A DNA stretch of 64,000 nt from a plasmid, in NCBI RefSeq assembly GCF_054482525.1, contig NZ_JBTHVG010000003.1; one strand, 5' to 3'. Both the position numbers and the translations under genes were made by a program. A model generated the notes under the pieces. It ran no database searches, had not been told where the DNA came from, and worked only from the letters and a program-made list of their open reading frames with translations. This document shows positions 35,272-52,041 of the stretch, one piece after another. The first letter of the stretch is position 1; the number at the start of each line of letters is the position of its first letter.

Positions 35272-37662
35272 TTATGTTTGAGGGAATTCTATAGCAAATG
35301 TGGCCGTGCCAGATTGACCACTTACAGCGGGAGTAACGGGATACGTGCGCTCTTCACCATTACCAAGATCCAGTGACAGCGATTTAGTTTCACCAGGCTG
35401 GACCGTAACTCCGGCAACCGTAACGCCGAACTGGGCATTTTTCTGAACAGTCAGGGTTCCGTTTAACTGTCCGGTAATGATAGAACCGTCCTGACGCCGC
35501 AACACACTGGTTCGGATGATGGCCAGCGGCGTGTTGTCCGTTGCTTTCAGTGCTACGGCTGTGGCCAGCGTCTTGAGATTATCCAGCATAATCAGATTCG
35601 CAGGCTGGTAGGTAAAATTAAGCGTTTTAGTGGTCCGGTTACCTGATTCGTCAATAGCCAGTGCCTCCAGATGATACATCTGTCCCGATTCGTCAGTGTT
35701 GGGGAAGATTCTGGGGTATTCCGGAATAAAGACATCCTTGGATAACGGCGTGAATGCCAGGGTGACCTTTTCAGAGTTAGGTCCACCAGCGAGCTGAAGC
35801 GATGTCAGGGAAGCATCCCCAGAGGCATCAGTAACGCTTATGCGAAGGTTCTCAAGCCCTTTAACCAGTTTTCCTTCTGCGTCTGCGCCATTAAAACTGA
35901 ACGCGATAACCGGAAGCGTTGAGTCAATTTTCAGCGGTGCATTAAGCGTTTTGGTTCCGGTGTTTCCAACAAGATCCGTGGCAGAGACGCTAACCACCGT
36001 ATAATCCCCGTCCGGTAGACCAGCGTATGAGAAGGTGGCGTTTTTGGTTTTATAATCGCTTTCACTGACGGTCACAGGCTTCAGCGTGAAAGGTTCCCCC
36101 CGGGCATTTTTAAGGGTGGCTTCGAAAACTTTGGTATCCCAGTAGCTGATGTTCCAGGCGTTGACGCGATCATTATCGGTGGCCGTCATAGTGATTGTCT
36201 TGGAGGCCTTGTTTACCTGAGCGACATTAACCACCGGTGGGTTGTTATCCCAGATAACCGTAAAATTACCAGCAAGCGCATCGAATATGCTGTCACCATC
36301 TTTTCCCGAGTAAAGGTGCAGATACTCAAATCCTTTGTCACTGGTGTAGTTGAAGTTAACCGTCATCTCGCATGAACTTTGTCCGATAGGTATAGTGCAG
36401 AACCAGGCTGCATTTTTTACCGTTCTGAACTTTTGCACGTATGGTCGGGGTTCAGCGGTTACCTTTATGCGGCTAATGGTGGCGGTTTTAACGCTGATTG
36501 AGGCCTGAGTTAACCACTCACTGGTATCACTCCGGTACATCTCTTTAGCCACTATCTTCGGGGCTATTTCCATCGCCGGGGCTGGAGTGAAGTTGAGGGA
36601 GTTATGATGAATTCGTCTTACTCCTCCTGCCAGAGTCTGGAATTCATGATAAGTATCCCCCACATTGGGATATATGTATTTGAAAGTATAAATATTATAA
36701 GTGCTATCGGACGTCTGGAAATTCGAGTCCGCCCAGCCATATTTGGAACCGTTAACAGCAGTAAAGTCACTTTTTTTCCTTAATACCCGTACGGAAATAG
36801 GGTTCTGGAAGACGGTCATGCCAGACTGATAAGTGACCCATGATCCGGTAGTGGCGTCCTGCACCTGGATGATATCGTCAGGCTTAACCCGATCAATTAC
36901 GCTTCGGCGGCTTAGTTCGATCCTGTTTCCCGCTTTGTCATAAAGGTAGATCCCCACTTTATATTCAGAGCGGTTTTCCGGTGCCAGGGCATTGCTGCTT
37001 GCGTCGGCGACTTGAACGGTTACGCTACCTTCCACTGTATTAATTTCCGCTGGCTTTTTACGCTCCACTCCAGCGGCATCGGTTATGAAATATTCAGCAT
37101 TAGCAAGCCCGGAACCTTTATCACTCAGTCCATTAAAGACCAGTGCCTGGACGCTGGCGTACTGCATACCGGCTGGTACTGAAGTGAAGATCGCTTCGCT
37201 GCCAAAGTTCCACCCGTTTCTCGTATAACTTATGGTACCCGTTGCCGGAGGCGTTCGGTCAATTGCAAGCGGGTAATCCTGCCGGGAGACCTCCTTCCCT
37301 TGCAAGTCGGTAATCACCTCTCTGAGGGTGAAGCTATCTTCTCCCATCGCTGGTACGGTCAGAGTCTTGCCGTAATAATCAAAGCCTGTCGAAGATGTGG
37401 TACGGTCATCTACGGTAACCAGGCTGCTTTTCGTGCTCCAGATGAGGCTCCCGTCACTTTTCAGCAGACTGAGCGTAATATAACGGTCCAGACCGGAAAT
37501 AACGGCAACGTCAAAGCTCGTTACCGGATTAATCCATACGGATGCAGGCGATACGGTCTTTTTAACGTTCAGGGTATCTTTAAAGCTGAATTCTGCGATT
37601 TCAGCGGAAGCTCCTGCGCTGAAACCTGCAAATGCAATAAGCAGGGCTAGTTTGATTTTCAT
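35272..37662 (-). CDS. large secreted protein, paralog A
   Basis: Signal peptide 'MKIKLALLIAFAGFSAGASA'; probable start 37662 with AGGAG RBS (ORF-track start 37689); ~800 aa sharing N-terminal 'FKDT..ISGLDR', 'LENLRI' and 'PEYPRIFPN' blocks with paralogs B and C. Confidence 0.6.
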   Translation of the reverse strand: MKIKLALLIAFAGFSAGASAEIAEFSFKDTLNVKKTVSPASVWINPVTSFDVAVISGLDRYITLSLLKSDGSLIWSTKSSLVTVDDRTTSSTGFDYYGKTLTVPAMGEDSFTLREVITDLQGKEVSRQDYPLAIDRTPPATGTISYTRNGWNFGSEAIFTSVPAGMQYASVQALVFNGLSDKGSGLANAEYFITDAAGVERKKPAEINTVEGSVTVQVADASSNALAPENRSEYKVGIYLYDKAGNRIELSRRSVIDRVKPDDIIQVQDATTGSWVTYQSGMTVFQNPISVRVLRKKSDFTAVNGSKYGWADSNFQTSDSTYNIYTFKYIYPNVGDTYHEFQTLAGGVRRIHHNSLNFTPAPAMEIAPKIVAKEMYRSDTSEWLTQASISVKTATISRIKVTAEPRPYVQKFRTVKNAAWFCTIPIGQSSCEMTVNFNYTSDKGFEYLHLYSGKDGDSIFDALAGNFTVIWDNNPPVVNVAQVNKASKTITMTATDNDRVNAWNISYWDTKVFEATLKNARGEPFTLKPVTVSESDYKTKNATFSYAGLPDGDYTVVSVSATDLVGNTGTKTLNAPLKIDSTLPVIAFSFNGADAEGKLVKGLENLRISVTDASGDASLTSLQLAGGPNSEKVTLAFTPLSKDVFIPEYPRIFPNTDESGQMYHLEALAIDESGNRTTKTLNFTYQPANLIMLDNLKTLATAVALKATDNTPLAIIRTSVLRRQDGSIITGQLNGTLTVQKNAQFGVTVAGVTVQPGETKSLSLDLGNGEERTYPVTPAVSGQSGTATFAIEFPQT

Positions 37663-38157
37663 GGGTTGTCTCCTGATCAGGTTCCCCATGATACTTTTTC
37701 AGTGTTCGAGATCTTTTCGGGAAAATAGCTAATTTTAATGTTTTTCTTTTCTGCCCGGCGGGACCTGTTTTGTTCCATTTTTATCAGTGAATGTAATGAG
37801 ACCGATTCGTCCACTGTTAACAGTGTAAAAGCGAGGTTGAAAGCCAGCTTTGAGAAGGTTTTCAATAGCTGAAAAAAAATCTTTTTTGAGCATTGGTTTC
37901 AAGATGGTTTTCCTTTTATGCCCGGTGCCGCCGGGACGGTGGCATTAAATATACGCCATGTAAGTAAATTAATTTTTACCCATTTGATTGTCAATACAAA
38001 CAAAAAATAAACCATGTTTATTATTTTACCAGCGATGCTATTTTAAAGTCCGTCTAAAATAAAAAACCAAAAAGTTAAATTTGAAGCCATCCTTCCTAAA
38101 TTCATTTCTTGCGCATATTAGCCCCTGCTTTAAGTATATAATTTTTGAAAAAGTTGT

Positions 38158-38176
38158 CTGGAGGTTATTAGCTCGT
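38158..38176 (+). promoter_or_regulatory. GGTTATTAGC-type box (plus-strand gene)
   Basis: ctggaggttattagctcg ~50 nt 5' of ATG 38223. Confidence 0.35.
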
Positions 38177-38222
38177 GCATCTGGATTGTTAATATAAAGC
38201 CAACACAGAAAAGGAAAACAAA

Positions 38223-38987
38223 ATGTATAAATTAGTATCTCCTCGTGAACTGACTGAGATTATTACCGGTTTACTGCTTAAACCTGAACTCCTTGGTGAG
38301 CTGGACTCACCAGAAAAGCATCGGATGTTTATGGCAGATTTAGGCCGGGTGGTGGCAGAACATTGTGGAGGTCTGGTAAACAGCGTCGTCTTGCCAGGAG
38401 CTGAAGTTACAGTGCCGGATGGGTTACCGCTTAACGGCCAGCCAGTACGTTATCTCGGAATCAAAGAGAGCATCCCTCACCTCCTTGTAGAGCCTGATGC
38501 TTCCTTACCTTCGCTCGCTAAAAACGTCTGGATGTATGCAGATCCTGAAGGCTGGAAAGAACATTTTGGAGCTGAGGAAGACTGCCTTACTCATGAAATG
38601 ATGCAGCTGTTCCGTAAAGGTATCCAGGCTCTTCAGAAGGAGCATGATACCCCTGAAATTAGCCTCACACTTCAGGACTGGCGCCTGGAGGAGGAAACAC
38701 TGAGAGAAGAGGACAGTCAGGCCTATCAGGTCAGCGTTACCGGCCAACATAACATCCACTGTGAAGTTGTTAACAAGGAAGGTAACCCCTGTTTTGGTGT
38801 CATGTTCGAAATCGATCAGGGTGTGCCTGCCTTACACATCAACACCGGCGGGGATATGTTGCTCCACATTCATTGCGCCCATAACGGACTCGTTCTGACC
38901 CCTGATGCAAGCGGTCAGCGATTTGAGAAGGCTCCCGTTGACCGCTTCGCTTATAACAGCCCATCCCTGCTGTTGTCTGCCGACTAA
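38223..38987 (+). CDS. hypothetical protein
   Basis: ORF; GGTTATTAG box ~50 bp upstream on plus strand. Confidence 0.4.
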   Translation: MYKLVSPRELTEIITGLLLKPELLGELDSPEKHRMFMADLGRVVAEHCGGLVNSVVLPGAEVTVPDGLPLNGQPVRYLGIKESIPHLLVEPDASLPSLAKNVWMYADPEGWKEHFGAEEDCLTHEMMQLFRKGIQALQKEHDTPEISLTLQDWRLEEETLREEDSQAYQVSVTGQHNIHCEVVNKEGNPCFGVMFEIDQGVPALHINTGGDMLLHIHCAHNGLVLTPDASGQRFEKAPVDRFAYNSPSLLLSAD

Positions 38988-39004
38988 CCAAGGCCAAATC
39001 TGAA

Positions 39005-39829
39005 TTGTCCTGTTTAAGTAACCAACCCGCTGCCGCCAGGCGGGTAAATCCTCTTAATGGAGTTTTAATGCAAATCTCAACTGAAGTTCTGAACGTCTTA
39101 TCTCGCTGCCGTGCTGAAGGGAACTTTCTTTTCCTGGCCGACCAGCTCGACCGCAGCATTTATGTTAAGACAAACAAAGTGCTGGAAGCTGCCGGTGGCA
39201 AATGGAACCGAAAAGAGCAGGCACATATTTTTACGGCGGATGCAGCTGAGCGTATCGAGCAAATCATTCTGACAGGTTCGGTCGACATCCCACGTGATTT
39301 GTTCAATTTCTTCCCTACCCCTGAGAATTTAGTCACAGATATGGTTCTACGCGCTGAACCAGCTGCCGGGGAACGTGTTCTGGAGCCTGAGTTTGGTGAT
39401 GGCCGCATTCTGAAAGCCTTAAAACTGGCGGCTCCGGATGCATTGATTACCGGGATCGAATTGAACGATGAGCGATTCCTTGCAGTGAAGAACGATAGTG
39501 TCCTTAGCACAGGGGCCGAGCTGGTGCATACCGACTTTCTTGGGTACCAGCCCGATGAAACTTTTGATGTTATCGTTATGAATCCACCATTCCTTAAACG
39601 CTCTGACGTTAAACATGTCATGCATGCCATCGCAATGCTCGCTAAGCGAGGTCGCTTACAGGCCATTCTGTCAGCTGGGGTATTGTTCCGGGAAGACACA
39701 CTGACAAAAGCGCTCAGGGAGCGAGTCAAACAACTTGGCGGACAAATTTCGCCTCTTCCGGATGATACATTTAGGGAGTCCGGAACAAAGGTCAAAACAG
39801 CCCGCCTTGAAATTGATCTTCGCCGCTAA
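39005..39829 (+). CDS. N6-adenine DNA methyltransferase-like protein (short form)
   Basis: SAM motif 'VLEPEFGDG', motif IV 'VIVMNPPF'; core paralogous to C-terminus of 56156-57847 (shared 'ITGIEL'). Confidence 0.6.
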   Translation: MSCLSNQPAAARRVNPLNGVLMQISTEVLNVLSRCRAEGNFLFLADQLDRSIYVKTNKVLEAAGGKWNRKEQAHIFTADAAERIEQIILTGSVDIPRDLFNFFPTPENLVTDMVLRAEPAAGERVLEPEFGDGRILKALKLAAPDALITGIELNDERFLAVKNDSVLSTGAELVHTDFLGYQPDETFDVIVMNPPFLKRSDVKHVMHAIAMLAKRGRLQAILSAGVLFREDTLTKALRERVKQLGGQISPLPDDTFRESGTKVKTARLEIDLRR

Positions 39830-39922
39830 CTGACAAGCAACCGGAAAGAAATCTTAATACGAGTAGCCGGTTAAAGTTACCTGACCGGCTTAACTGACTA
39901 AATCAATAAAGAGTGAACAGAA

Positions 39923-40186
39923 ATGACGCATACTGCCGTTTCTCAGGCTAATAGTGCTTTGCAGCTACCCACGCTGGAGCATGTCTACGCACTTCTGAAA
40001 GCAAATTGTAAACCTGACCGCTTTGACGGGCGTGACGGACCCGTGTGGGGCCAGGAATACTCGTGGAATCTGGCAAAAGATCGCTTACAGGATCTGGAGA
40101 AATACGGTAAGGCATATGTCTCCCGTCATGAAGACCGTATGGGGGAAGGATTTAGTTTTGGTCCTGACCTGTTAATTATTCGCTAA
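39923..40186 (+). CDS. hypothetical small protein
   Basis: ORF. Confidence 0.3.
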   Translation: MTHTAVSQANSALQLPTLEHVYALLKANCKPDRFDGRDGPVWGQEYSWNLAKDRLQDLEKYGKAYVSRHEDRMGEGFSFGPDLLIIR

Positions 40187-40206
40187 CGCTCTTAAGGCCT
40201 GATGAT

Positions 40207-40818
40207 ATGGTAAGCACAACTGGAAAAAATATGTTTTCAAAGCCTATGACCACTTTCACACCAGAACGTATTGAACAAATTTTGGAATTTTCCGAGGGTA
40301 GTAACCCAAGCGAAGCAATGAGTCTTAGAGCTGACGAAGTTGCTGTACTGGCACGTATTGGAAAGGCAGTTATGTCGATTGCGCCTGTTTATCAGTGCGA
40401 GTTTTGCCACCATGACGCAACCGGGCAACTTCAGTGGCACTGGGAAGATGTGAACAAAGCTTTTTATGATAAATACGATCCAGACAGACGCGGAAGACGT
40501 CGAATCCTCTATACCGCCCCGCCGATGCCTTTAGTTTCGGCTGACCTGCTTAACATGGCTTCATCTGCTATTGAAGACTTGCTCACTAACAAAGACAGAA
40601 GTGGTGCGGGAATGTGGAATGACATTCCAGAACAGCTACGACGCGCAGCAGAACTGGTAATGGATAATAGCCGGGCCGCTGAAATAGAAGCGATGCTGAT
40701 GCGTCTTTATGTAGAATGTGACACCGGTGAGCGCAGAGGCAACGGCAGTCAATCTGGCGTAGCAATGCCTTCGTGGCAAACCGTTGAAGAGGCACGTGTG
40801 TTGCTGGGGGTGAAATGA
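40207..40818 (+). CDS. hypothetical protein
   Basis: ORF. Confidence 0.35.
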   Translation: MVSTTGKNMFSKPMTTFTPERIEQILEFSEGSNPSEAMSLRADEVAVLARIGKAVMSIAPVYQCEFCHHDATGQLQWHWEDVNKAFYDKYDPDRRGRRRILYTAPPMPLVSADLLNMASSAIEDLLTNKDRSGAGMWNDIPEQLRRAAELVMDNSRAAEIEAMLMRLYVECDTGERRGNGSQSGVAMPSWQTVEEARVLLGVK

Positions 40819-41282
40819 TGCAGTTCTCGCCAGGGCAGTTTGTAATTCACAACAAGAAGCGCCTTGCGGAACGAAGGTAGACGTACTGACTGAGGTTCAC
40901 TCCCCTCTCGACTGGTGGCGTAATACCGCCAGGTTTTGATTCATATATGCCGTCCGTTAACGCATTTATATCTGTCATACCTAATTTATCCTGATTCTTT
41001 TTTACACAAAGTAAAAGCATCACTTAATGCGATATGTGGATGCCGATAGTTTCAGGCTAATGTTATAAGTTTTGCAATCGTTGCCAGTTTGGATACCACA
41101 GCAATGTCAGATGTAATTCCAAAAAGAAAGATTTACGTCCTGAACGCACAATAAGGTTTGTCGAAAGGCAAATTATAGATTTGTAATTTCGAGCACCATA
41201 TGGAGAAGTTTTTTATACTTTTACGAACATAGTGACCTTTAGGAAAAGCTTAAAATAACACCAAACCTAAAGGGGAATAAGA

Positions 41283-43703
41283 ATGAAACATCTCGCTTTT
41301 ATTACTGCTGTAGCCGGACTCGGTATGTCTGTTCAGGCCCCAGCTCAGATATATGAATCGGCCTTTAAGGACACGAACGGTATTGAGATCCACGCCCCGT
41401 CTTCTCGTCTTATGCTTAATCCGGCATCACCGGTAACTTTGACACTTATTTCAGGTCTTGATCGTTTCGTTAATGTCAAAGTCACGAAAGACACTGGAAC
41501 TGTCATTCTTAATACTACGACTACACGGACGGGTGTATCAGACCGACTAACAGCTGCTGACGGTAGTGAGTTCTACGGCAAAAAAGTAACTTTGCCTGCT
41601 TTGGGTGAAGGCAAATTTGTCGTTCAGATAAACGTGTTAGATCTCAATCAGAAGCCTGTAGCGACCTATAACTATAACTGGCTAATTGATGTCACCCCTC
41701 CAGCGGCAAATGCTCTTACCGCTAATACTGGTTCTGGCTCTACCGCTGGTGACGTGTGGAAGCTTGGATTAGAGGCAACGGGGCAGTATGACTTCACCTC
41801 TTCGGGCGTAAGTGATGCAAATGGTATTGATAAGGGCCTAATATATATTTACAGGCAGGACGGTAGCCTCTACAGCACTACACAGATGCAGTATGACGTA
41901 TCCGGCCAAAAGATGTACCACACTTACTCTAAGAATTCAGTTAAGGGAACCGGAATACCAGACAGCAACCTGGATGAAGACTTTACTGCAAAAGTTGTTA
42001 TCTTCGATAACGCAGGTAATAGCCGAACGCTGCCAACTCAAAAATTTCGCTACGACAACACGCTGGGTGAGATGACACTGTGGGCCGTTCATGATCCAAA
42101 TACGTCTTCCAGCGTCGTACCCGGGGTTTCTAATTATCCGGCTTACAAAGCCGGTATGGTCGTTAACGAAAACCCTATTCGATTAGTCTACCGGATCCCA
42201 AAATCTAACTACCGTGCTTATTCAGAAGGTGGGCTTCAGTTCATCAATCAATATTCCGCCCCCAAAGAGATAGCTGTAGACAGCACTTATGCTTATGTTG
42301 AAATGACTCTTCCCTATGGCTCAATTAATGGGGATATGGCTCGTATGGCGAACTTTGGCCAGTGGGGAGGGTATTATCCGTCATACAGCCTCGTTCTAAA
42401 CCCATCTGCAAACCAAACGCCTGCATTTGCGGGTACCTGGGTAGATTTCCTCGATGATAAGGGGAACTGGGTTAAGTGGAAGGATTTTGAGAGTGTGGCT
42501 TCATCACGACTGCCAATTAAAATTTCCCGACTTCGTTTTAACGTTGAAGCCCGGCCCTTTGCACAGGAGATCGGCGGTAAGGCGACCTGCACCATTCCGG
42601 CAGGAAAAACCTCGTGTGAAGCGCCTGAGACGTTTGATATGGCCTTGGGTACCCAGGGCTACAATAGAATCCTTTACTTCGTTCGCAGCATCAGCAATCC
42701 CATTTTGCGGTCTGAGCAATGGATTATGACACGCTGGAACAATAAACAACTGCCGGTAATAAACTCGATATCATATGACGAGACTAACAAGCAGCTGGAT
42801 GTACTGGCGTCACTTGAAGGCGATGGTAACTGGTTCGACTCGGTCTCATTGAGGGAATTTTATCTTTCCGATAAGAACACCGGTACCCGGATGTCACCAA
42901 CAGGCGTAATCAAATCTCGTATCTCAGGTAACTACACGATTGCTTATGATTTATCCCGTCAGTCTGAAGGAAAATACAACGTTGAGGTCAACATCAGGGA
43001 CTTCTTCCAGAACCAGACCAATAAAACTTTCGGAGAAATTGCTCTGGATAACACTCCTCCGACAGTGGCCATAACATTCGACGGAAAGCCGGTAAAAGAC
43101 GATACGGTAGTGTACGGCCTGGAGAACCTCAGGATCGCTCTGGCAGATAATCTGACAACCCCGAGGATAACCCGTCTTCAGCTCGTAGGTGGCCCCACAG
43201 CTGATAACGTTGAGCTTACGTGGTCACCGGCAGGCAAAGATACATACATGCCTGAGTATCCGAGGCTGTTCCCAAATTTCGAACCATCTGAAAATTATTC
43301 AATTAGCGTAACAGTTGCCGATAGTCAGTCGAATACCAAAACCTATACTCAGAAGTTCAGTTATCTACCGAATAACCTTGTGCAGTTACATAATCTACGC
43401 ACATTGTCGGTCAGTTCACCTCTCAAAACGACAGATGGCGTACCACTTGCGTACCTGTCCACTAACGTTCTGCGTAAGACAAATGGAGAAATTGCTAAAG
43501 GGGTCCAGAACGCAACGCTGACTGTGCGGAAGGATGCAGCCTTCGGTATTAAATTTAATGGGGCACAGGCGGCTCCAGGCGAGTCAGTTGAGGTGCAAAT
43601 AGATATGGGCCAGGGGGATAATCTTCTGTTACCCGTTTATCCTTCCGAAAATGGGAAAGTTGGCACCTCAGAATTCATGATTCAGATCGACGAGTTGAAG
43701 TAA
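41283..43703 (+). CDS. large secreted protein, paralog B
   Basis: Signal peptide, 806 aa, conserved blocks shared with paralogs A and C; ATG with AGGGGA RBS. Confidence 0.6.
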   Translation: MKHLAFITAVAGLGMSVQAPAQIYESAFKDTNGIEIHAPSSRLMLNPASPVTLTLISGLDRFVNVKVTKDTGTVILNTTTTRTGVSDRLTAADGSEFYGKKVTLPALGEGKFVVQINVLDLNQKPVATYNYNWLIDVTPPAANALTANTGSGSTAGDVWKLGLEATGQYDFTSSGVSDANGIDKGLIYIYRQDGSLYSTTQMQYDVSGQKMYHTYSKNSVKGTGIPDSNLDEDFTAKVVIFDNAGNSRTLPTQKFRYDNTLGEMTLWAVHDPNTSSSVVPGVSNYPAYKAGMVVNENPIRLVYRIPKSNYRAYSEGGLQFINQYSAPKEIAVDSTYAYVEMTLPYGSINGDMARMANFGQWGGYYPSYSLVLNPSANQTPAFAGTWVDFLDDKGNWVKWKDFESVASSRLPIKISRLRFNVEARPFAQEIGGKATCTIPAGKTSCEAPETFDMALGTQGYNRILYFVRSISNPILRSEQWIMTRWNNKQLPVINSISYDETNKQLDVLASLEGDGNWFDSVSLREFYLSDKNTGTRMSPTGVIKSRISGNYTIAYDLSRQSEGKYNVEVNIRDFFQNQTNKTFGEIALDNTPPTVAITFDGKPVKDDTVVYGLENLRIALADNLTTPRITRLQLVGGPTADNVELTWSPAGKDTYMPEYPRLFPNFEPSENYSISVTVADSQSNTKTYTQKFSYLPNNLVQLHNLRTLSVSSPLKTTDGVPLAYLSTNVLRKTNGEIAKGVQNATLTVRKDAAFGIKFNGAQAAPGESVEVQIDMGQGDNLLLPVYPSENGKVGTSEFMIQIDELK

Positions 43704-43817: not shown

Positions 43818-43868
43818 AATCGTACGTTTCCAGCGATGCTTTCAAAAGACAATGCATACTCGTTGATT

Positions 43869-44350
43869 ACGACAATGGGAGTGAGTGTCGAACCCCTTGA
43901 GTAAGGATACCTGGTAAATATACAGCCCCGGGGATTCTCTTCCTTCAACCGGGGATGACAACGGGAGTGAGTCCGGCAACTCACACCTGTTGTCACTTCT
44001 CTGACATATCGTCATACGAGCTTACTCAAGCGCATCCACAAAGATGGGATCGTTTTGAATCTAAACTGGTACTGGTTAGCCAGTCACTTGCATCTACTCC
44101 CCCGTCGATATTTAAGTGACAATTGTAGTGATCTGCAATACTGGTGTCTCAGAAACACTGACGACGGTAGAGACTCAATACCCTAACCCCTGACAACAGA
44201 AGTGAGCTTAGAGGTGTTACGCTGCTGTCACCTAATGCTTGGGAATTGCCTGACTCACAACCATTGTCATCCGGAGCTACTGATTAACGTTGAACCGCTG
44301 GACTTTAATGACAGTGGTAGTGATGGATAGGCTCATTTCCATTGTCGTCA
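43869..44350. repeat. iteron-like palindromic repeats (distal part of the repA downstream repeat field)
   Basis: At least five units with gacaaYRRgagtga half-sites, the same core as the 46076-47320 array. Confidence 0.55.
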
Positions 44351-44354
44351 TTTT

Positions 44355-46055
44355 ATCGGAGAACCACGGCAGCCTGGCGGCTGCAAATTGAAAACCGCCC
44401 CGGTTCGTCCTGTTGTTGCCGCACGCCCCGCAGAATATGTATGCTCTGAGGACCTGTTTTATTAAGGACTCATCCCCTTATGTTGACCCGCAAAAGTATC
44501 GATACAGTTCTGCTCTCTGTTGGTGCTGAGAAGCTCTCACAACGAGAATGGGACTGGATGAAAATGCTCAAACCCATGGACCCACCACCTGCGATGGTGA
44601 CGACCTCCATCCTGAAGCGCCGTGGCGATACAGCAGCCCTTACCCTGCTACAGGATACCGGGGTTTAATCCATCCTCATGTTGTCCGGTTTTACTCCCCG
44701 CCCTCTGAAACGTCTGTTCACAGCCAACCAGTGCTGGACGTCCTTCCTGGATGCGGGCGGTCTGCGCGATATCGAGGTTGAAGCCGTCACCAAAATGCTG
44801 GCCTGCGGCACACGGATACTGGGTGTAAAAGAGTTCGGGTGTGATAACCCGGACTGTCAGCACGTAAAGTACCTGACCAACTCATGCGGCAGCCGTGCCT
44901 GCCCGTCCTGCGGAAAGAAGGCCACAGACCTGTGGACAGCAACACAGCTGAATCGTCTTCCTGACTGCGACTGGGTACATCTGGTCTTCACCCTGCCGGA
45001 CACGCTGTGGCCGGTGTTCGAAAGCAACCGCTGGCTGCTGAATGACGTGTGCCGTCTGGCGGTGGAGAATCTGCTGTATGCCGCCCGAAAACGGGGGCTG
45101 GAACCCGGTATCTTCTGCGCCATCCACACGTATGGCCGTCGTCTCAACTGGCATCCGCATGTACATGTGTCTGTAACCTGTGGAGGTCTGAATAAGCATG
45201 GTCAGTGGAAAAAGCTGAGCTTCCTGAAAGACGCGATGCGTTCACGGTGGATGTGGAATATGCGGCAGCTGCTTCTGAAAGCGTGGTCAGAGGGGATGGC
45301 AATGCCGGAGTCGTTGTCACATATCACGACGGAATCACAGTGGAGAAGCCTGGTGCTGAAATCCGGCGGAAAATACTGGCATGTGTACATGTCGAAGAAG
45401 ACAGCCGGAGGGCGGAATACGGCACGCTACCTGGGTCGTTATCTGAAGAAGCCACCAATAGCGGCTTCCCGACTGGCTCATTACAACGGAGGGGCAAGCC
45501 TGAGCTTCCGTTACCTGGACCACAAAACGGGAGAAACGGCGACGGAAACGCTGACACAGCGTGAGCTGGTCGCGAGGCTGAAACAGCACATCCCGGAGAA
45601 GTTTTTTAAGATGGTGAGGTACTTCGGGTTCCTTGCCAACCGTGTGTGTGGAGAGAAGCTGCCGCAGGTGTACCGTGCACTGGGGATGGATAAACCGGAA
45701 CCAGTGGCGAAAGTGTGCTATGCACAAATGGTGAAACAGTTCCTGAGTCGTGACCCGTTCGAATGCGTGCTGTGTGGCTGCCGGATGGTATACCGCCGGG
45801 CCATTGCGGGGCTGAATGTATCAGGGCTGAAGAAAAACGCGCGGGATATCAGTCTACTGAGGTATATGCCGGCCTGACACAGGCTAAGTGTGCCCGGGAA
45901 TCGGTGAAAGTATAAAAAACAGCCTGTTACGGTATAAAAATCGACCATACAGAGAGGGAAACCACCGGAGTGGTGGGAAAAGCAGAAAGGCTCACGTGGC
46001 ATAAGGCGTGGACAATGGTATCGACTGGTTTTTCAATTTCCTATACGTCAAGCCT
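44355..46055 (+). mobile_element. IS91-family insertion sequence (IS1294-like); ends approximate
   Basis: Rolling-circle transposase gene plus small upstream ORF; no inverted repeats; right end near '...tttttcaatttcctatacgtcaag'. Interrupts the iteron field. Confidence 0.6.
44678..45877 (+). CDS. IS91-family rolling-circle (HUH/Y2) transposase
   Basis: N-terminal Zn-binding 'CQHVKYLTNSCGSRACPSCG', HUH-like 'WHPHVHV', C-terminal Tyr-containing region. Confidence 0.75.
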   Translation: MLSGFTPRPLKRLFTANQCWTSFLDAGGLRDIEVEAVTKMLACGTRILGVKEFGCDNPDCQHVKYLTNSCGSRACPSCGKKATDLWTATQLNRLPDCDWVHLVFTLPDTLWPVFESNRWLLNDVCRLAVENLLYAARKRGLEPGIFCAIHTYGRRLNWHPHVHVSVTCGGLNKHGQWKKLSFLKDAMRSRWMWNMRQLLLKAWSEGMAMPESLSHITTESQWRSLVLKSGGKYWHVYMSKKTAGGRNTARYLGRYLKKPPIAASRLAHYNGGASLSFRYLDHKTGETATETLTQRELVARLKQHIPEKFFKMVRYFGFLANRVCGEKLPQVYRALGMDKPEPVAKVCYAQMVKQFLSRDPFECVLCGCRMVYRRAIAGLNVSGLKKNARDISLLRYMPA

Positions 46056-46075
46056 CTTCGTCCTACAGGTTTAAG

Positions 46076-46925: not shown

Positions 46926-47388
46926 TCTGGCCCAACCGGAAGCCGTATTCGCCAATCCAATCGAGATTCACAATGGCCGTGACTCGCCGCATTAAGTTCC
47001 GGTGTCCTCCCAAAGCTGAACGCACACTCGGAGGACAATGACAATGCCAGTAAGGTACACATCATTACCATTGTCACTATAGCTACCAGAGAAGCCGGGA
47101 TTTGAATGTCGATGGTAGTGAGTGGGTCAACTCACTGCCATTGTCACCCCGTTACGATATTTTCCGTTGGATGTACTGGCCAATGAAGTAAAGCGTAGAA
47201 ACCGGGTGTTAACAGGTGACTCAGGAGAAAGCGTTGAATTTCGCAATCTCGATCTACATAGGGTGGTAGAGAACAATGACAACGGTAATGACTTTTGACT
47301 CATTACCGTTGACGTGAAAGAGCGGGCTGGGACTAACGAAAATCGAAGAAGTAATTTAGCACCCGGAGCCTAAACCGCCGGGTTAACT

Positions 47389-48477
47389 TTAGCTGGCGTT
47401 GCTGTTCTTTTTCTGGCTTCGAAGACTACGAATATAGCGCAGTTCTTCAGCGGTTAAATCATGGACGGTAAGAACATCATCGCCGTCAATCGGGTCAGCT
47501 GGTGGGCATAACTCACCTTCTAAAACAGAAGACCCTGAGTTCTCTTCTTCATCTTCAACCACTTCTAAAGGAGGCTGAGTATTGTTCAAATTCAGATCGG
47601 GATCCCGCTTATGAATCTGGAAGTATACTTTTCCGTCTTTCTTAATTTCGGTGTACTTGAGGTATCCTATCGATGCCAACTCTTCAAGAGCCTTTCTCAC
47701 GGTAGCATTCTGACTATTTGCTCGTGTTTTGAGGTTCAGACGATTTTTCAGCCGAGTAAGGGATATCGGTATAGGATTTGGCGGTAATGACTCTATGAAC
47801 GTATAGAGAGCCTGGGCGCTTTCCTTCTTGGCCAACTCCTTAATTGCCTTCAGCTGCATCAAAACCTTATGATCGTATTGATAGAGCTCGAAAATCTTAG
47901 GATCAACCTGAAGGACAACCTGATCTGATTCCGGGTCTAACAGGGCAGACTGTACCAGATGCGTTGTATAGACTTTGGACGAGTTATTACTGGTGAACGA
48001 CAAGGTAACGGATGCTAACCTGCGTAAGGAGGCGTCTATACGTTTTCTGGACGCTGTAGATGAGCGATAATTTTCAGGCGTACATAGCTTGAGGAATTCA
48101 GTGAATTTTAAGCTTATCGTGTCATTGTTAATCGGATGATTGGCATAGGTTCGAATGATGCCCATCCACGTCTTAAAATCTACTGACATATTAAGACGCT
48201 CACCGACAATTGAAATATTGGTGAACCCCTCGCTCTCCATTAAAGAGAGCGTCTGTAACTCTTTCGTTGCGTCAAAGCCAACCGTTTTATATTCCCGATT
48301 TTGACGCCCCACACTCTTTGGTGATGGGACGAACAGCCCGAGCCGCATCAAAGCAATAGACTGCACCGTACGGTTGCTGTTAGGACGCAAAATGATGTCT
48401 TTACCTGATTCTTTCTCTCTAACAGAGAAAGCCCTGGTGACCAGGTCCTGCTGCTCAGTATCTTTCTCTTTAGTCAT
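47389..48477 (-). CDS. repA: iteron-type replication initiator RepA (P1/RepFIB group)
   Basis: Segments 'NRTVQSIALMRLGLFVP', 'DFKTWMGII', 'AQALYTFIESLPPNPIPISLTRLKNRLNL' match my recollection of P1 and RepFIB RepA; flanked by iterons on both sides. Confidence 0.75.
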   Translation of the reverse strand: MTKEKDTEQQDLVTRAFSVREKESGKDIILRPNSNRTVQSIALMRLGLFVPSPKSVGRQNREYKTVGFDATKELQTLSLMESEGFTNISIVGERLNMSVDFKTWMGIIRTYANHPINNDTISLKFTEFLKLCTPENYRSSTASRKRIDASLRRLASVTLSFTSNNSSKVYTTHLVQSALLDPESDQVVLQVDPKIFELYQYDHKVLMQLKAIKELAKKESAQALYTFIESLPPNPIPISLTRLKNRLNLKTRANSQNATVRKALEELASIGYLKYTEIKKDGKVYFQIHKRDPDLNLNNTQPPLEVVEDEEENSGSSVLEGELCPPADPIDGDDVLTVHDLTAEELRYIRSLRSQKKNSNAS

Positions 48478-48548
48478 AATAAGTTATCACTGAATGTGTA
48501 AACAGATTGGTGAATAGTAAGCCCCAGCGAACTCTATGTCACTGGATG

Positions 48549-48719
48549 GATCATTGTGATGATCCATATCTGTGCATAAGTTCTACCTAAAAAAACGACT
48601 CCACTCATTAAAACTTGGCAAAAACTCTTTGCATACAATGACCTGCAACTCTTATCAACAACGGATCAGATCAAGTTAAAAAGATCTAATGAAAAGTCAC
48701 TACTATTGTCGCTCTGATC
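48549..48719. promoter_or_regulatory. repA promoter/origin-proximal region with six GATC sites and a palindrome
   Basis: GATC at 48549, 48561, 48664, 48669, 48683, 48716; palindrome ggatcattgtgatgatcc; DnaA-box-like ttatcaaca near 48652. Confidence 0.4.
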
Positions 48720-48800
48720 ACTACTGATGTCAAAAAACTCATTACCAACGTTATAATAATCACTACTAATGTCAAAATAATCACTACTGTTGTCACTGAT
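48696..48800. repeat. upstream iteron cluster 1 (five ~21-bp direct repeats)
   Basis: Repeats of cactacYRWTGTC at ~21-22 bp spacing, ~220 bp 5' of repA. Confidence 0.65.
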
Positions 48801-49108
48801 CACGTCTCAGGCCTTGTGCCGTCTGGCCTGGAGGCAGCGGGGATCTCTTTTGATCTATCAGGAACACTAAGGTACTAATTATTGGAACTACCTTGTGGAA
48901 AATGGGGATAAATAAATGCTTAGTTCTTATACAGGTCTCAACTTGCCTCCCTGATAAAAACTGTCGTCAAAGCTAAATCGCAGCCACAGGCATTTTCGGT
49001 GGATAAATTTTTGAGAAATAGAAGCATACATGCAGACTCGTGTCGCAAGTAATTGAAAGTAATGATTTATTTAAATAATGCGAGTCACCTTACCTCACAG
49101 TGGAAGTT

Positions 49109-49220
49109 TAAGTCTAACCTCACTACCATTGTCACTTAAAATCATTACCAACGTCGAAATAGTCTCTACCATTGTCTTTTAAGTCACTCCCGTTGTCACT
49201 TATGTCGCTACTGTTGTCAG
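49109..49220. repeat. upstream iteron cluster 2 (five ~21-bp direct repeats)
   Basis: cactaccattgtcac-like repeats at ~21-bp period. Confidence 0.6.
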
Positions 49221-49447
49221 TGACAATGCTCCAGCCCAGTAACCATGCGGCCTACAGCGTACCGGGATCTTCTTTGTACTCTCTGGCACCTTTGGGATCA
49301 TTTATTGGATCTACATGAGGGATAAAATCTTTTGACGATTTCGTAGTGCAGTTATACCAGCGACTTAGCAAGACAAAAGCTGCAATTTAGTGACGAGTTA
49401 CTAGTCTGCCCAACAAGAGCAATGCAGAGAAGATATGTGGTGAAATG

Positions 49448-49481
49448 ACCATGGTAGTGAGTCTAATCACTACCATGGTCC
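49448..49481. repeat. isolated palindromic iteron pair
   Basis: gaccatggtagtgagtctaatcactaccatggtc. Confidence 0.55.
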
Positions 49482-49584
49482 GCAGTAAGCGTTACTTACG
49501 CAATGAACGTCGGACTGATTTGCAACAACATGGGCTACGGCGCATCAGAAGGCGGCCGTTGTGCTTCAGCAAAACAGCCCTGCT

Positions 49585-52041
49585 TTATTTTAATTCTTCA
49601 ATGTTAATCATGAACTCAGATCTGCCAGTAAGGCCGGATACAGCAGGGAAAATAGGAAAGCTACGGCTGTCCCCGAGCCCCAAATCCAGTTGAAGCTCTT
49701 TGCTTTCACCTGGCATCGCAGAAACGCCATTTACAGTCACGCCGAATGCAGCGTCCTTACGGACAGTAAGCACTGCGTCCTGAAGCCCTGTAGCGATTGA
49801 ACCATCCTTTTTACGCAGCTGGCTGGCATACAGAACAGCCAGAGCAGTATTGTCAGATGTTTTGAGAGAAGCATTGACAGCTAAGGTTTTCAGATTCTCT
49901 AGCCTGACGAGATTGTTTGGAAGGTAGTTAAATTCGACTGAGCTTTCTTTAACGTTGTTCATCTCATCTTTGGCCTGAACTGTGAGAGTGTATGTTTCGC
50001 CTTCATTAAGAGACGGAAAGATCTTGGGATAATTAGGTGCATACAGGTTGTTTCCCAGATTCACCCAAGACAATTCCACCGCATCAGAAACAGGGCCACC
50101 GCGAAGAGTCATACGGCTTAAGGATGGTTTAGTTAGAGCATCGGTGAGCTGTATACGGACGTTCTCCAGCCCATATACTGTTACGTTTTTGCTGATCGGT
50201 TTTCCTTCGTAGCTAATACTTACAGATGGTGCTGTATTATCAACGACAACTGTTTGATAAGGGAGGTTACCGGTATTGTTGAATGTATCTTGGGCATTAA
50301 TCACCACGTTATAACTGCCTTCTGGTACCTCTTTCATGTTGAACTCATACGTGTAGTTCCCAGACGCCATATTTCTACCTGTTTGTTTGCCGGTTACGCT
50401 TATTTCTGCGTTGTTACGGTTTTTATCTGACAACCAAACTCGATTTACATAAACATGGTCGAAATATGAACCATCTCCAGGTTGATTCACGTAAACCTGG
50501 AGAATGTTGGTGGTTTCATTGTAATCAAATCCAGTGACGGAGGGACCCAGTGTATGCCAGGCTATATTCTCCCATATAGGGGCAAAGAAGGTTGCTTCGG
50601 TGGTTGACCTTACTTCATAGCCACTATGAAGATAACCGGTAGTGCCATTTATAATATCCTGGGGCAAAGAGACGGTACAGGTTGTTGAGCCAGCTGGAAT
50701 ACTGCATGTTGCTCCGCCAGTGATTTTTTGATCATATGGCCTGGCCTGTACATTGAATCGGATATTAGTAAGTTTTATAGGCATATCAGATGCCTTGAAC
50801 AGGTTCCAGTTTACGCTGTTGAACCATGTTCCATCAGCCTTTTGTCGTTCTATGGGTGAACTTCCCCAAGCCGGACTCTTTACAGAGGCAGGATCCCAGT
50901 TGAGCCAGCTGGCATACTGACCAAGATCTCCTCCAGACCATTGATATGTATTCACAGGTCTATAGTAGTTTCCATCTAAGGCACCCTGTGGCAGCTTAAC
51001 TTCCACGTAGACATAGGTGGCATCTTCGGAAAGGACCTGTACTCCGCCATAGTTATTGGTAATGCTCATGCCACCATTTCGATATGGCTTCCAGTTAGTT
51101 CTTGGGATACGTATAACCAACTTGTAGGGGTTTTCCAGCACTGTAAGGCCTCGTTTAAACGGGACGTATCCCGAAGAAATGCCGGGTACAACACTGGTGC
51201 TTACACGTGAGTCATGAACTGCAAATGGCGTAAATTCTCCCATTTGATCGTCATATAAAAACCGCTGGGGAGGAATGTTAAGCGTATTTCCTGCCAGGTC
51301 CGTAACGATGAAATTGAAGGTGAATTCTTCATCAAGATCACTTGAGGGCATGCCAGCCTGGGTGTTCATATCTTTAATCCACGGATAGACCGCACGTTTA
51401 TTGGCTGTGTCATAACTCAGGTTATTGTCGGAGACCACAGAACCATTACTTCGTTTAATGACAAGACGGATCTTGTCAATTCCACTAGCATCCTCAATAC
51501 CGTCTGCAAATATAGAAAACTGGCCACTACCGCCTCGGCCCAACTCCCAAAGTGGCCCAGAAAGTACCATGTCGTAACCTGCGTTTTGACTCGGATAAAT
51601 ACTCTTATAGCGTGGAGGAGTTGTATCAACGATGAAATGATAAGTAGATGTGCTCACTACAGTCTGGCGAATATCCAGAGTTTCATTGACTACAGTAAAG
51701 GTCCCTTCTCCGAGCGCCGGTAGAACCATATCCTTTCCATAGTATTCTGTTCCATCGGCAGCAACGATACGATCTGCAACGCTCGTTTTGGTCGAGACGG
51801 AGGAATACATAACCTTTTTATCGCTGTCTCGTGTGACCGTCACTCGCTCGTACCGATCAAGACCCGATATCAAGTTCAGAGTCAAAACACCAGCGGGATT
51901 AAGATATGTTTGTGTTGCAGGTTTGATATTCCGAACAGCCTTATTGGTATCTGTAAATGAGTAGCTAAATACCTGAGCATGTGCCGAAGATACAGTAGCA
52001 AGGGCAGTTGCAACCATGCAGCCAATTAGAGTTTTACGCAT
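49585..52041 (-). CDS. large secreted protein, paralog C
   Basis: Signal peptide 'MRKTLIGCMVATALATVSSAHA', 818 aa, blocks shared with A and B; ATG with GGAG RBS; two palindromic motif copies 150-235 bp upstream. Confidence 0.6.
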   Translation of the reverse strand: MRKTLIGCMVATALATVSSAHAQVFSYSFTDTNKAVRNIKPATQTYLNPAGVLTLNLISGLDRYERVTVTRDSDKKVMYSSVSTKTSVADRIVAADGTEYYGKDMVLPALGEGTFTVVNETLDIRQTVVSTSTYHFIVDTTPPRYKSIYPSQNAGYDMVLSGPLWELGRGGSGQFSIFADGIEDASGIDKIRLVIKRSNGSVVSDNNLSYDTANKRAVYPWIKDMNTQAGMPSSDLDEEFTFNFIVTDLAGNTLNIPPQRFLYDDQMGEFTPFAVHDSRVSTSVVPGISSGYVPFKRGLTVLENPYKLVIRIPRTNWKPYRNGGMSITNNYGGVQVLSEDATYVYVEVKLPQGALDGNYYRPVNTYQWSGGDLGQYASWLNWDPASVKSPAWGSSPIERQKADGTWFNSVNWNLFKASDMPIKLTNIRFNVQARPYDQKITGGATCSIPAGSTTCTVSLPQDIINGTTGYLHSGYEVRSTTEATFFAPIWENIAWHTLGPSVTGFDYNETTNILQVYVNQPGDGSYFDHVYVNRVWLSDKNRNNAEISVTGKQTGRNMASGNYTYEFNMKEVPEGSYNVVINAQDTFNNTGNLPYQTVVVDNTAPSVSISYEGKPISKNVTVYGLENVRIQLTDALTKPSLSRMTLRGGPVSDAVELSWVNLGNNLYAPNYPKIFPSLNEGETYTLTVQAKDEMNNVKESSVEFNYLPNNLVRLENLKTLAVNASLKTSDNTALAVLYASQLRKKDGSIATGLQDAVLTVRKDAAFGVTVNGVSAMPGESKELQLDLGLGDSRSFPIFPAVSGLTGRSEFMINIEELK

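What the first reader, a model, noticed from the sequence alone, without database searches (positions are those of the whole stretch)
35272..52041. Three paralogous ~800-aa secreted proteins bracketing the replicon
Genes at 35272-37662 (minus), 41283-43703 (plus) and 49585-52041 (minus) encode signal-peptide proteins of nearly identical length that share an N-terminal FKDT..ISGLDR block, a central cysteine-containing block and a C-terminal LENLRI..(Y/F)xPEYPRxFPN block, but are otherwise strongly diverged. Triplicated divergent surface or secreted proteins on a plasmid suggest an antigenically variable adhesin or receptor-binding family, and one copy carries the palindromic motif upstream. I cannot assign them to a named family.
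Basis: seen in the sequence. Interest (0 to 1): 0.6.

Follow-up and report, generated by a model that had tools for sequence, protein, structure and literature searches.

The report
Three RSP2-like conjugation proteins, IncHI2 plasmid
The three ~800-residue secreted proteins are real, ancient paralogues of RSP2, an immunoglobulin-like protein that helps IncHI plasmids conjugate. This shows that IncHI2 resistance plasmids, which the literature says lack rsp2, carry three diverged copies of it.

Summary
ORFs A (35272-37662, -), B (41283-43703, +) and C (49585-52041, -) encode signal-peptide proteins that are homologous over their full length: A-B 29%, A-C 29%, B-C 41% identity, E 1e-84 or better.

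The window is IncHI2 plasmid backbone. B and C flank repHI2.

All three proteins have the architecture DUF4165 + Big_3_2 + Big_3_3. The AlphaFold model of B is a chain of about seven beta-sandwich domains with no enzyme domain.

They belong to a named, partly characterised family. R27 (IncHI1) RSP2/R0055 has the same architecture and aligns end to end (39/32/35% identity). RSP2 binds RSP, flagella and the conjugative pilus. Its deletion lowers R27 transfer about 100-fold in liquid at 25 C.

R27 has the same three-gene set, but its B copy is a frameshifted pseudogene and its C copy is cut by IS30. The triplication therefore predates the IncHI1/IncHI2 split.

The published statement that IncHI2 lacks rsp2 holds only at nucleotide level.

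The 1828-aa IncC Big protein joins an RSP2-like N-terminal module to an RSP-like C-terminal module. The two modules occur in almost the same number of plasmids, with near-identical genus counts.

Antigenic variation is not supported: each gene is at least 99% identical in more than 1000 plasmids.

Verdict: a new member of a known kind, of moderate interest.

The parts
35272..37662 (-). Gene A, 796 aa. An RSP2-clade paralogue and the closest IncHI2 relative of R27 RSP2. Domains: DUF4165 17-135, Big_3_2 137-256, Big_3_3 539-695.
   Evidence: BLASTP against R27 RSP2: 39% identity over 788 aa, E 1e-174. Sister to RSP2 with 100% bootstrap.
41283..43703 (+). Gene B, 806 aa. Domains: DUF4165 21-138, Big_3_2 139-259, conserved Cys436/Cys445, Big_3_3 549-705, disordered linker 701-715, C-terminal beta domain 721-803.
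   Evidence: 86% identical to the C-terminal fragment of the R27 pseudogene.
49585..52041 (-). Gene C, 818 aa, same architecture. Orthologue of the IS30-interrupted R27 gene at NC_002305 48925-51084.
   Evidence: 81% identity and 100% bootstrap with the R27 gene.
47389..48477 (-). repHI2 replication initiator, lying between B and C.
   Evidence: RefSeq annotation of the 100%-identical plasmid p8C59-NDM.
43866..44350 (.). Iteron-like repeats (GACAAyGGGAGTGAGT and its inverse) on the B side of repHI2.
48672..49224 (.). Iteron array with 21-bp period (TCACTACnnTTGTC) between repHI2 and the 3' end of C. A perfect 14-nt inverted pair lies at 49447-49480.
52197..52274 (.). Two copies of the palindrome AAAAGT-A-ACTTTT (52197-52209 and 52262-52274), 156-233 nt upstream of C. 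Candidate operator.
   Evidence: A copy sits 177 nt upstream of the R27 orthologue of C.
44678..45877 (+). IS91-family transposase, a strain-specific insertion between B and repHI2. Not part of the system.
   Evidence: Most IncHI2 plasmids cover only 90% of the query because they lack this insertion.
38223..40818 (+). Block of small backbone genes separating A from B. The first gene (254 aa) is 32% identical to R27 63174-63950.
35115..35131 (-). Terminator-like hairpin followed by a T-run, downstream of A.
   Evidence: This is a consensus match only; terminator-like sites are not enriched over shuffles.

Best explanation
A, B and C are three anciently diverged paralogues of the RSP2 family of plasmid-encoded bacterial Ig-like (Big) proteins. 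They are carried on the IncHI2 backbone around repHI2.

Shown here:
- Each protein has a Sec-type signal peptide followed by a rod of about seven beta-sandwich domains: DUF4165, Big_3_2, three unnamed domains, Big_3_3, a flexible linker and a conserved C-terminal domain. The second unnamed domain carries the only two cysteines.
- Each is homologous end to end to R27 RSP2.
- The same plasmid type encodes RSP in its Tra2 region.
- The RSP2-like and RSP-like modules co-occur across about 3000 MOBH/MPF_F plasmids and are fused into one polypeptide in IncC plasmids.

Inferred from the R27 experiments:
- The proteins cross the inner membrane by Sec and form one disulfide in the periplasm.
- They are released or displayed in a way that depends on the conjugative T4SS/pilus machinery (TrhC, TrhH, TrhA) and on RSP.
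- They associate with RSP and bind flagella, which lowers motility, and the H-pilus.
- The result is more mating-pair formation and more plasmid transfer, above all in liquid at temperatures of 30 C or below.

My reading of the conservation pattern is that the conserved N-terminal and C-terminal domains carry the shared interactions (export, RSP or pilus docking). The divergent middle would then give each paralogue its own target.
For: Identity of the replicon and partner gene:
- The region is 100% identical to IncHI2 plasmids; 725 or more records cover at least 80% of it.
- rsp is present on the identical plasmid p8C59-NDM at 9002-13306.

Membership of the RSP2 family:
- Pfam DUF4165 + Big_3_2 + Big_3_3 in A and B and in 9-11 of 11 relatives. 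R27 RSP2 is described with the same architecture and 794 aa (PMC8730810 section 5).
- BLASTP to RSP2: A 39% (E 1e-174), B 32% (E 5e-107), C 35% (E 3e-122), all full length.

Shared ancestry with R27:
- Same neighbourhood in both plasmids: DUF4942 gene, Ig gene, Rep, Ig gene, Ig gene, RelE/ParE toxin, PAPS reductase.
- Orthology: C with R27 Ig1 81%, B with the R27 pseudogene 86%, A and RSP2 sister with 100% bootstrap.

Structure:
- AF2 model of B has pLDDT 85.5 and is all-beta.
- Foldseek finds only multi-Ig/MG proteins and SiiE BIg domains.

Link to RSP:
- IncC 1828-aa protein: residues 1-800 match full-length B (32%, E 7e-114). Residues 822-1819 match RSP 371-1404 (E 1e-63).
- hhalign: RSP2-family profile columns 414-703 match RSP 171-499, probability 96%.
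- The RSP C-terminal module is in 2965 plasmids; the RSP2 module is in 3059, with near-identical genus counts.

Function of the characterised homologues (PMC8730810):
- RSP2 co-precipitates with RSP.
- Its export needs trhC and partly needs rsp.
- It binds flagella and pili.
- Deleting rsp2 lowers liquid transfer about 2 logs.
- The IncC homologue is needed for conjugation at 25 C.
Against: - No experiment exists for any of the three IncHI2 proteins.
- The only characterised member, RSP2, is 32-39% identical to them.
- A is not at exactly the RSP2 position. It lies on the other side of the ~3-kb small-gene block. Its dN to RSP2 is 0.66, against 0.06-0.22 for backbone genes. A may therefore be an old allele or paralogue rather than a strict orthologue.
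- R27 conjugates with its B and C copies inactivated, so B and C are not essential for transfer in that system.
- The published analysis states that IncHI2 lacks rsp2. That is explained by the absence of nucleotide similarity, but it means nobody has examined these genes.
- A cleavable Sec signal combined with T4SS-dependent release is mechanistically unresolved, even for RSP2.
Confidence: 0.8

Rival explanations
1. They are general adhesins or biofilm factors for host tissue or abiotic surfaces (fibrillar-adhesin type). They would be unrelated to conjugation and carried by the plasmid as an accessory colonisation trait.
For: - The model is an all-beta rod of Ig-like domains with weak similarity to the SiiE adhesin: PDB 2yn3, E 4.8e-6 by sequence profile and 16% identity by fold.
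- R27 does not need intact B and C copies to conjugate.
Against: - The family is confined almost entirely to conjugative MOBH/MPF_F plasmids: 2741 of 3059 records are conjugative.
- In IncC plasmids the gene sits between the pilin gene traA and dsbC/traC.
- The RSP2 module is fused to, or co-occurs with, the RSP module that is required for conjugation.
- There are no repeated identical BIg units, no T1SS signal and no autotransporter barrel.
Confidence: 0.1
2. They are an antigenically variable surface-protein family. The three divergent copies would let the plasmid-bearing cell vary its exposed epitopes and so evade immunity or phage.
For: - Three divergent paralogues whose central regions have only 5-30% identity.
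- The A/RSP2 lineage has diverged 3-7 times more than neighbouring backbone genes between IncHI1 and IncHI2.
Against: - Each gene is at least 99% identical in 1028 (A), 1079 (B) and 1107 (C) plasmids from many hosts and countries.
- No invertible segments, cassettes or tandem repeats were found near the genes.
- The B and C orthologues are 81-86% conserved across the deep IncHI1/IncHI2 split, like ordinary backbone genes.
Confidence: 0.04
3. They are degenerating, functionless duplicates of a single ancestral gene, carried passively next to the replicon.
For: R27 has lost two of the three copies, one to IS30 insertion and one to frameshifts plus an internal deletion.
Against: - All three IncHI2 genes are intact ORFs of 796-818 codons in more than 1000 plasmids.
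- dN to the R27 orthologues of B and C (0.085 and 0.127) is as low as for the conjugation gene rsp (0.097), while synonymous sites are saturated. That implies long purifying selection.
- Intact C orthologues exist in other IncHI1 plasmids, e.g. H107 and H108.
Confidence: 0.05

Closest known systems
RSP2 (R0055, R27_p055) of the IncHI1 plasmid R27 (Huttener et al. 2022, mSphere; PMC8730810)
   Same: - Similar length: 794 aa versus 796-818 aa.
- Signal peptide and DUF4165 + Big_3_2/Big_1 + Big_3_3 architecture.
- End-to-end homology (39/32/35% identity).
- Same plasmid neighbourhood, between the Tra regions and next to the replicon.
- rsp is present on the same plasmid.
   Different: - Only 32-39% identical, with no nucleotide-level similarity.
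- Three intact copies here against one intact copy in R27.
- A lies on the other side of a ~3-kb gene block relative to rsp2.
- None of the three has been tested experimentally.
IncA/C (IncC) 1828-1843-aa Big protein (pKAZ3 ALG87338.1; pNDM-EcoGN568 WP_000606835.1)
   Same: - Its first ~800 residues are a complete RSP2-like module with the same Pfam domains, 32% identical to B (26% for a second allele type).
- It is exported.
- It is needed for conjugation at 25 C (PMC8730810 section 12).
   Different: - It carries a ~1000-aa C-terminal extension homologous to RSP 371-1404. It is in effect an RSP2-like module and an RSP-like module in one chain.
- It is a single copy inside the tra operon, between traA and dsbC.
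RSP (R0009) of IncHI plasmids
   Same: - Big protein exported with the help of the conjugative T4SS.
- It shares a core with the RSP2 family, running from the Cys block (VEPRxYVQ..C..G..C) to Big_3_3: hhalign probability 96%, E 1.8e-9.
   Different: - About 1430 aa.
- It lacks DUF4165, Big_3_2 and the RSP2 C-terminal domain.
- It has a ~900-aa C-terminal module that is absent from A, B and C.
- Direct BLASTP of B against RSP is not significant.
SiiE and other fibrillar BIg adhesins
   Same: Rod of Ig-like beta-sandwich domains. There is weak sequence and fold similarity of the Big_3_3 region to SiiE BIg50-52 (PDB 2yn3).
   Different: - Seven heterogeneous domains rather than dozens of near-identical repeats.
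- A Sec signal instead of a T1SS C-terminal signal.
- Encoded on a plasmid next to conjugation genes.

Membership tests
RSP2 family of plasmid Big proteins (type member R27 R0055) | Full-length sequence homology to R27 RSP2 | tested here: met
   BLASTP against RSP2: A 39% (E 1e-174), B 32% (E 5e-107), C 35% (E 3e-122), each spanning both proteins.
RSP2 family of plasmid Big proteins (type member R27 R0055) | Architecture DUF4165, then Big_3_2 (Big_1 in CDD), then Big_3_3, in a protein of about 800 aa | tested here: met
   Pfam hits in B (E 9e-14, 6e-27, 3e-63) and in A. C aligns through all of these domains. The paper gives DUF4165 23-142, Big_1 143-254 and Big_3 537-693 for RSP2.
RSP2 family of plasmid Big proteins (type member R27 R0055) | Encoded on an IncHI-type (MOBH, MPF_F) conjugative plasmid that also encodes RSP, in the region between the Tra regions | tested here: met
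   p8C59-NDM is typed IncHI2A, MOBH and MPF_F. rsp lies at 9002-13306. The neighbourhood is shared with R27.
RSP2 family of plasmid Big proteins (type member R27 R0055) | Exported protein (periplasm and cell-free secretome) | tested here: inconclusive
   All three have a Sec-type signal sequence with an AxA site. The AF2 model has a low-confidence N-terminal helix at residues 1-19. Export itself cannot be tested with these tools.
RSP2 family of plasmid Big proteins (type member R27 R0055) | Interaction with RSP; TrhC-dependent release; binding to flagella and conjugative pilus; deletion lowers conjugation | not testable with these tools
   Only indirect support is available: the IncC fusion of RSP2-like and RSP-like modules, and the presence of the two modules in 3059 and 2965 plasmids with near-identical genus counts.
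RSP (R0009) orthologues | About 1430 aa with the ~900-aa RSP C-terminal module | tested here: not met
   A, B and C are about 800 aa. BLASTP of B against RSP gives E 0.1. Only a shared core is detected by profile comparison.
Fibrillar / giant BIg adhesins (SiiE type) | Many tandem near-identical BIg repeats and a T1SS C-terminal secretion signal | tested here: not met
   The model has seven dissimilar beta domains. Secretion signal is an N-terminal Sec peptide. Similarity to SiiE is only 16% identity.
Intimin/invasin or autotransporter adhesins | Outer-membrane beta-barrel anchor domain | tested here: not met
   No such Pfam or NCBIfam domain was found. The AF2 model has no barrel.
Phage tail fibre / receptor-binding proteins | Homology to phage structural families, or a phage gene context | tested here: not met
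   PHROGs: none for B or C, and one marginal hit for A (E 0.005, 17 bits) to a family of unknown function. The gene context is plasmid backbone.
Antigenically or phase-variable surface protein families | High allelic variability between isolates, or a local switching mechanism | tested here: not met
   At least 99% identity in 1028-1107 plasmids. No invertible or cassette repeats were found in the flanks.

The most novel reading that the evidence does not exclude
IncHI2 plasmids use a division-of-labour set of three RSP2-type adhesins that dock on RSP and the H-pilus through their conserved terminal domains. Their divergent middle domains would bind different targets, such as flagellin, pilin or recipient surface structures. 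In that way they would tune mating efficiency or recipient range, much as TraN variants do in IncF plasmids (from my own knowledge, not checked here). The long IncC protein would be the fused, single-chain version of the same machine. The fast-diverging A/RSP2 lineage would be the specificity-determining component.
Probability: 0.2. Interest if true: 0.6.

Novelty: new member of a known kind. Interest (0 to 1): 0.35.

Why it matters
IncHI2 plasmids are major carriers of mcr-1 and other last-line resistance genes. RSP-type Big proteins have been proposed and tested as vaccine and nanobody targets and as handles to block conjugation (PMC6764697, PMC11268884).

The literature treats RSP2 as specific to IncHI1 and studies a plasmid, R27, in which two of the three paralogues are dead. 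IncHI2 has three intact, highly conserved RSP2-type proteins that are predicted to be exported. This changes three things:
- which genes should be knocked out to understand IncHI2 transfer;
- the number of conserved candidate antigens on offer;

The RSP2-like/RSP-like fusion in IncC plasmids gives independent genomic support for the RSP-RSP2 partnership.

Tried and rejected
- NCBIfam gave no family. The only hit was a sub-threshold one to PorU: 19 bits against a cut-off of 420.
- PADLOC gave nothing. PHROGs gave nothing for B or C and one marginal hit for A (E 0.005, 17 bits), so phage and defence readings were dropped.
- A sequence-profile search of PDB found only SiiE, at E 5e-6.
- Foldseek with the whole model returned generic multi-Ig/MG proteins at TM below 0.2.
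- The promoter/terminator scan showed no enrichment over shuffles. It is used only to note a hairpin after A.
- dN/dS between IncHI2 and R27 could not be computed, because synonymous sites are saturated (pS 0.66-0.84). Only dN was compared.
- I first read A as a strict positional orthologue of rsp2. Checking the flanking small genes showed that it lies on the opposite side of the block, so that claim was weakened.
- A literature search for the palindrome sequence found nothing relevant.
- The C. freundii plasmid fetched as a diverged IncHI2 relative proved to be an IncHI1B/IncP mosaic and was not used for rate estimates.
- R27 loci fetched by accession were not exported to the scripting sandbox. 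Their DNA was passed through DNA alignment instead.
Full report

ORFs lie at 35272-37689 (-), 41283-43703 (+) and 49585-52041 (-). RefSeq annotation of a 100%-identical plasmid starts the first one at 37662. That start gives a canonical signal peptide. I call the three genes A, B and C.

The proteins are 796, 806 and 818 aa and align over their whole length. Pairwise BLASTP gives:
- A-B: 28.6% identity, E 1.5e-87
- A-C: 29.0% identity, E 5e-84
- B-C: 41.2% identity, E 0

A against 30 shuffles of B never exceeds 25 bits, versus 282 bits observed.

Each mature protein has exactly two cysteines, in a conserved C-x8-C block. All three N-termini look like Sec signal peptides with AxA sites.

Identity is highest in the first ~120 and last ~200 residues and falls to 5-30% in the middle.

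**2. Where is it?**

The 17.5-kb region is 100% identical to many IncHI2 plasmids of E. coli, Salmonella, Enterobacter and others. At least 725 records cover 80% or more of it.

- repHI2 (47389-48477) lies between B and C, with iteron arrays on both sides.
- A lies 3.6 kb beyond B, across a block of small genes.
- An IS91-family element (44678-45877) and an IS2-type element (52491-53764) are strain-specific insertions.

So only B and C bracket the replicon.

**3. What are the proteins?**

Pfam finds DUF4165, Big_3_2 and Big_3_3 in A and B and in nearly all relatives tested. NCBIfam and PADLOC find nothing meaningful. PHROGs gives only one marginal hit for A (E 0.005, 17 bits).

An AlphaFold2 model of B, built on a 33-sequence alignment, has mean pLDDT 85.5. 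It is an all-beta string of about seven sandwich domains. A disordered linker at 701-715 precedes a small C-terminal domain.

- Foldseek against PDB returns only multi-Ig/macroglobulin-type proteins and SiiE BIg domains.
- The DUF4165 domain modelled alone (pLDDT 94) is a generic Ig/FnIII-like sandwich.
- There is no enzyme domain.

**4. The named family**

The Juarez laboratory described two Big proteins of the IncHI1 plasmid R27.

*RSP (R0009, 155 kDa)* (PMC6764697):
- It is required for conjugation in liquid.
- It is exported with the help of the conjugative T4SS.
- It binds flagella.

*RSP2 (R0055)* (PMC8730810):
- It is 794 aa, with DUF4165 at 23-142, Big_1 at 143-254 and Big_3 at 537-693.
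- It co-precipitates with RSP.
- It needs trhC, and partly rsp, for release.
- It binds flagella and the conjugative pilus.
- Its deletion lowers liquid transfer by about 2 logs.

I fetched R27 and compared. RSP2 aligns end to end with A (39%, E 1e-174), B (32%, E 5e-107) and C (35%, E 3e-122). The three window proteins are therefore members of the RSP2 family by sequence, architecture and genomic setting. The same IncHI2 plasmid carries rsp in its Tra2 region.

**5. The triplication is old, and R27 is the degenerate case**

R27 has the same neighbourhood: DUF4942 gene, Ig gene 1, Rep, Ig gene 2, RSP2, RelE/ParE toxin, PAPS-reductase gene.

- Ig gene 1 is cut by IS30.
- Ig gene 2 is a pseudogene with frameshifts and an internal deletion of about 260 codons.

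In a neighbour-joining tree with bootstrap:
- C pairs with R27 Ig1 (81% identity, 100% support).
- A pairs with RSP2 (100% support).
- The surviving C-terminal fragment of Ig2 is 86% identical to B.

The three lineages thus predate the IncHI1/IncHI2 split. The only experimentally studied plasmid retains a single intact copy.

A Klebsiella IncHI1B-type plasmid has three paralogues in tandem next to parAB. Multi-copy sets are common: about 7670 matches in 3059 plasmids.

**6. Rates of divergence**

Synonymous sites between IncHI2 and R27 are saturated for every gene, so only dN is informative.

| Gene pair | dN |
|---|---|
| Backbone genes | 0.06-0.22 |
| rsp | 0.097 |
| B | 0.085 |
| C | 0.127 |
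| A vs RSP2 | 0.655 |

A also sits on the other side of the ~3-kb small-gene block relative to rsp2. A and rsp2 are each other's closest relatives. They may still be old alleles or paralogues rather than strict orthologues.

There is no nucleotide-level similarity between rsp2 and A, B or C. [quoted passage not shown] At protein level those statements do not hold.

**7. Link to RSP**

The ~1830-aa IncC (IncA/C) Big protein lies between traA and dsbC/traC. It is the homologue of pKAZ3 ALG87338.1, which is needed for conjugation at 25 C.

- Its first ~800 residues match full-length B (32%, E 7e-114).
- Its residues 822-1819 match RSP 371-1404 (E 1e-63).

A profile comparison shows that RSP itself shares a core with the RSP2 family, from the Cys block to Big_3_3 (probability 96%, E 1.8e-9).

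The RSP C-terminal module occurs once per plasmid in 2965 plasmids. The RSP2-like module occurs in 3059. Genus counts are near-identical:

| Genus | RSP C-terminal module | RSP2-like module |
|---|---|---|
| Klebsiella | 918 | 926 |
| Salmonella | 545 | 564 |
| Enterobacter | 329 | 333 |
| Citrobacter | 137 | 137 |
| Providencia | 51 | 51 |

In a library of 50%-identity representatives the family has 505 members at E 1e-30 or better. The best 150 fall into a ~780-860-aa class and a ~1750-1950-aa class. Among the full-length matches the RSP2-like module starts within the first ~35 residues of the protein.

Fusion in one lineage and matching distribution elsewhere are independent genomic support for the RSP-RSP2 partnership reported experimentally. 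They also support carrying that function over to A, B and C.

**8. Mechanism**

*Shown:* signal peptide, domain rod, conserved Cys pair, family membership, co-residence with rsp and with an MPF_F/MOBH transfer system.

*Inferred from R27 and IncC experiments:*
- Sec export and periplasmic disulfide formation. Plasmid DsbC/HtdT-type isomerases are encoded in the tra regions.
- Release or display that depends on pilus assembly and on RSP.
- Binding to flagella and the H-pilus.
- Reduced motility and better mating-pair formation at low temperature.

*My inference only:* the conserved termini mediate the shared docking steps, and the divergent middle domains give each paralogue a different target.

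**9. Rival readings**

- *Generic host or abiotic-surface adhesin.* Not excluded, but it fits the distribution poorly. The family is almost confined to conjugative MOBH plasmids and lies inside tra operons in IncC.
- *Antigenic variation.* Contradicted by at least 99% identity of each gene in more than 1000 plasmids and by the absence of switching elements.
- *Decaying duplicates.* Contradicted by intact ORFs in more than 1000 plasmids and by low dN for B and C.
- *Phage or defence roles.* No support.

**10. Side observation**

The palindrome AAAAGT-n-ACTTTT occurs 7 times exactly in the window, against 0.01 expected. With one mismatch allowed it occurs 13 times, against 0.32 expected.

Most of the exact copies lie 90-230 nt upstream of minus-strand backbone genes, including two copies upstream of C. 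R27 has 9 copies in 44 kb, one of them 177 nt upstream of the C orthologue. It looks like the operator of an unidentified IncHI backbone regulator. I found no description of it.

**11. Verdict**

The family is known and partly characterised, so this is a new member of a known kind.

What is new:
- IncHI2 carries three intact RSP2-type genes, contrary to the published statement.
- The three-gene set is ancestral to IncHI1 and IncHI2.
- R27 retains only one intact copy.
- The IncC protein is an RSP2-like/RSP-like fusion.

Interest is moderate (0.35). The result is useful to people who study or target IncHI conjugation, but it does not overturn a concept.

Noticed in passing
window 8479, 8605, 28381, 32593, 52197, 52262, 61202; L003 (R27) 2737, 18084, 21018, 26184, 39552: The 6-1-6 palindrome AAAAGT-n-ACTTTT is strongly over-represented: 7 exact copies in the window against 0.01 expected, and 9 copies with one mismatch or fewer in 44 kb of R27. 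Most exact copies lie 90-230 nt upstream of minus-strand backbone genes. The position upstream of gene C is conserved in R27. It is a candidate operator of an unknown IncHI backbone regulator, and I found no relevant literature.
   Followed up: partly
L004:7968-13454 (IncC plasmid pNDM-EcoGN568) and L005:7968-13499: The ~1830-aa IncC Big protein, located between traA and dsbC, combines two modules. Residues 1-800 are a full RSP2-like module, and residues ~822-1819 are an RSP-like module (E 1e-63 to R27 RSP 371-1404). This is a natural fusion of the two IncHI partners.
   Followed up: yes
L003:9630-11248 (R27, minus strand) and L003:2926-5085: In R27 the orthologue of B is a pseudogene split into four frame-shifted pieces, with an internal deletion of about 260 codons. 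The orthologue of C is truncated by IS30. Only RSP2 is intact in the model plasmid.
   Followed up: yes
window 43866-44350 and 48672-49224; 49447-49480: Iteron-like repeats with a 21-bp period (TCACTACnnTTGTC) lie on both sides of repHI2. A perfect 14-nt inverted pair lies just downstream of gene C.
   Followed up: no
window 44678-45877 and 52491-53764: An IS91-family transposase lies between B and repHI2, and IS2-type orfA/orfB lie ~450 nt upstream of C. Both are strain-specific insertions. Most IncHI2 plasmids lack the IS91 copy at this site.
   Followed up: partly
L006:16386-24941 (Klebsiella IncHI1B-type plasmid pZ0117KP0017-2): Three RSP2-family genes lie in tandem on one strand next to parAB. 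One is split by IS5, and the other two are 72% identical to each other. This is an independent multi-copy arrangement of the same family.
   Followed up: partly
window 35272-37662 vs L003:11499-13883: Gene A and R27 rsp2 have diverged far more (dN 0.66, 39% amino-acid identity) than every neighbouring backbone gene (dN 0.06-0.22). They also sit on opposite sides of a ~3-kb gene block. The cause is either accelerated evolution or allele replacement, and it is unresolved.
   Followed up: partly
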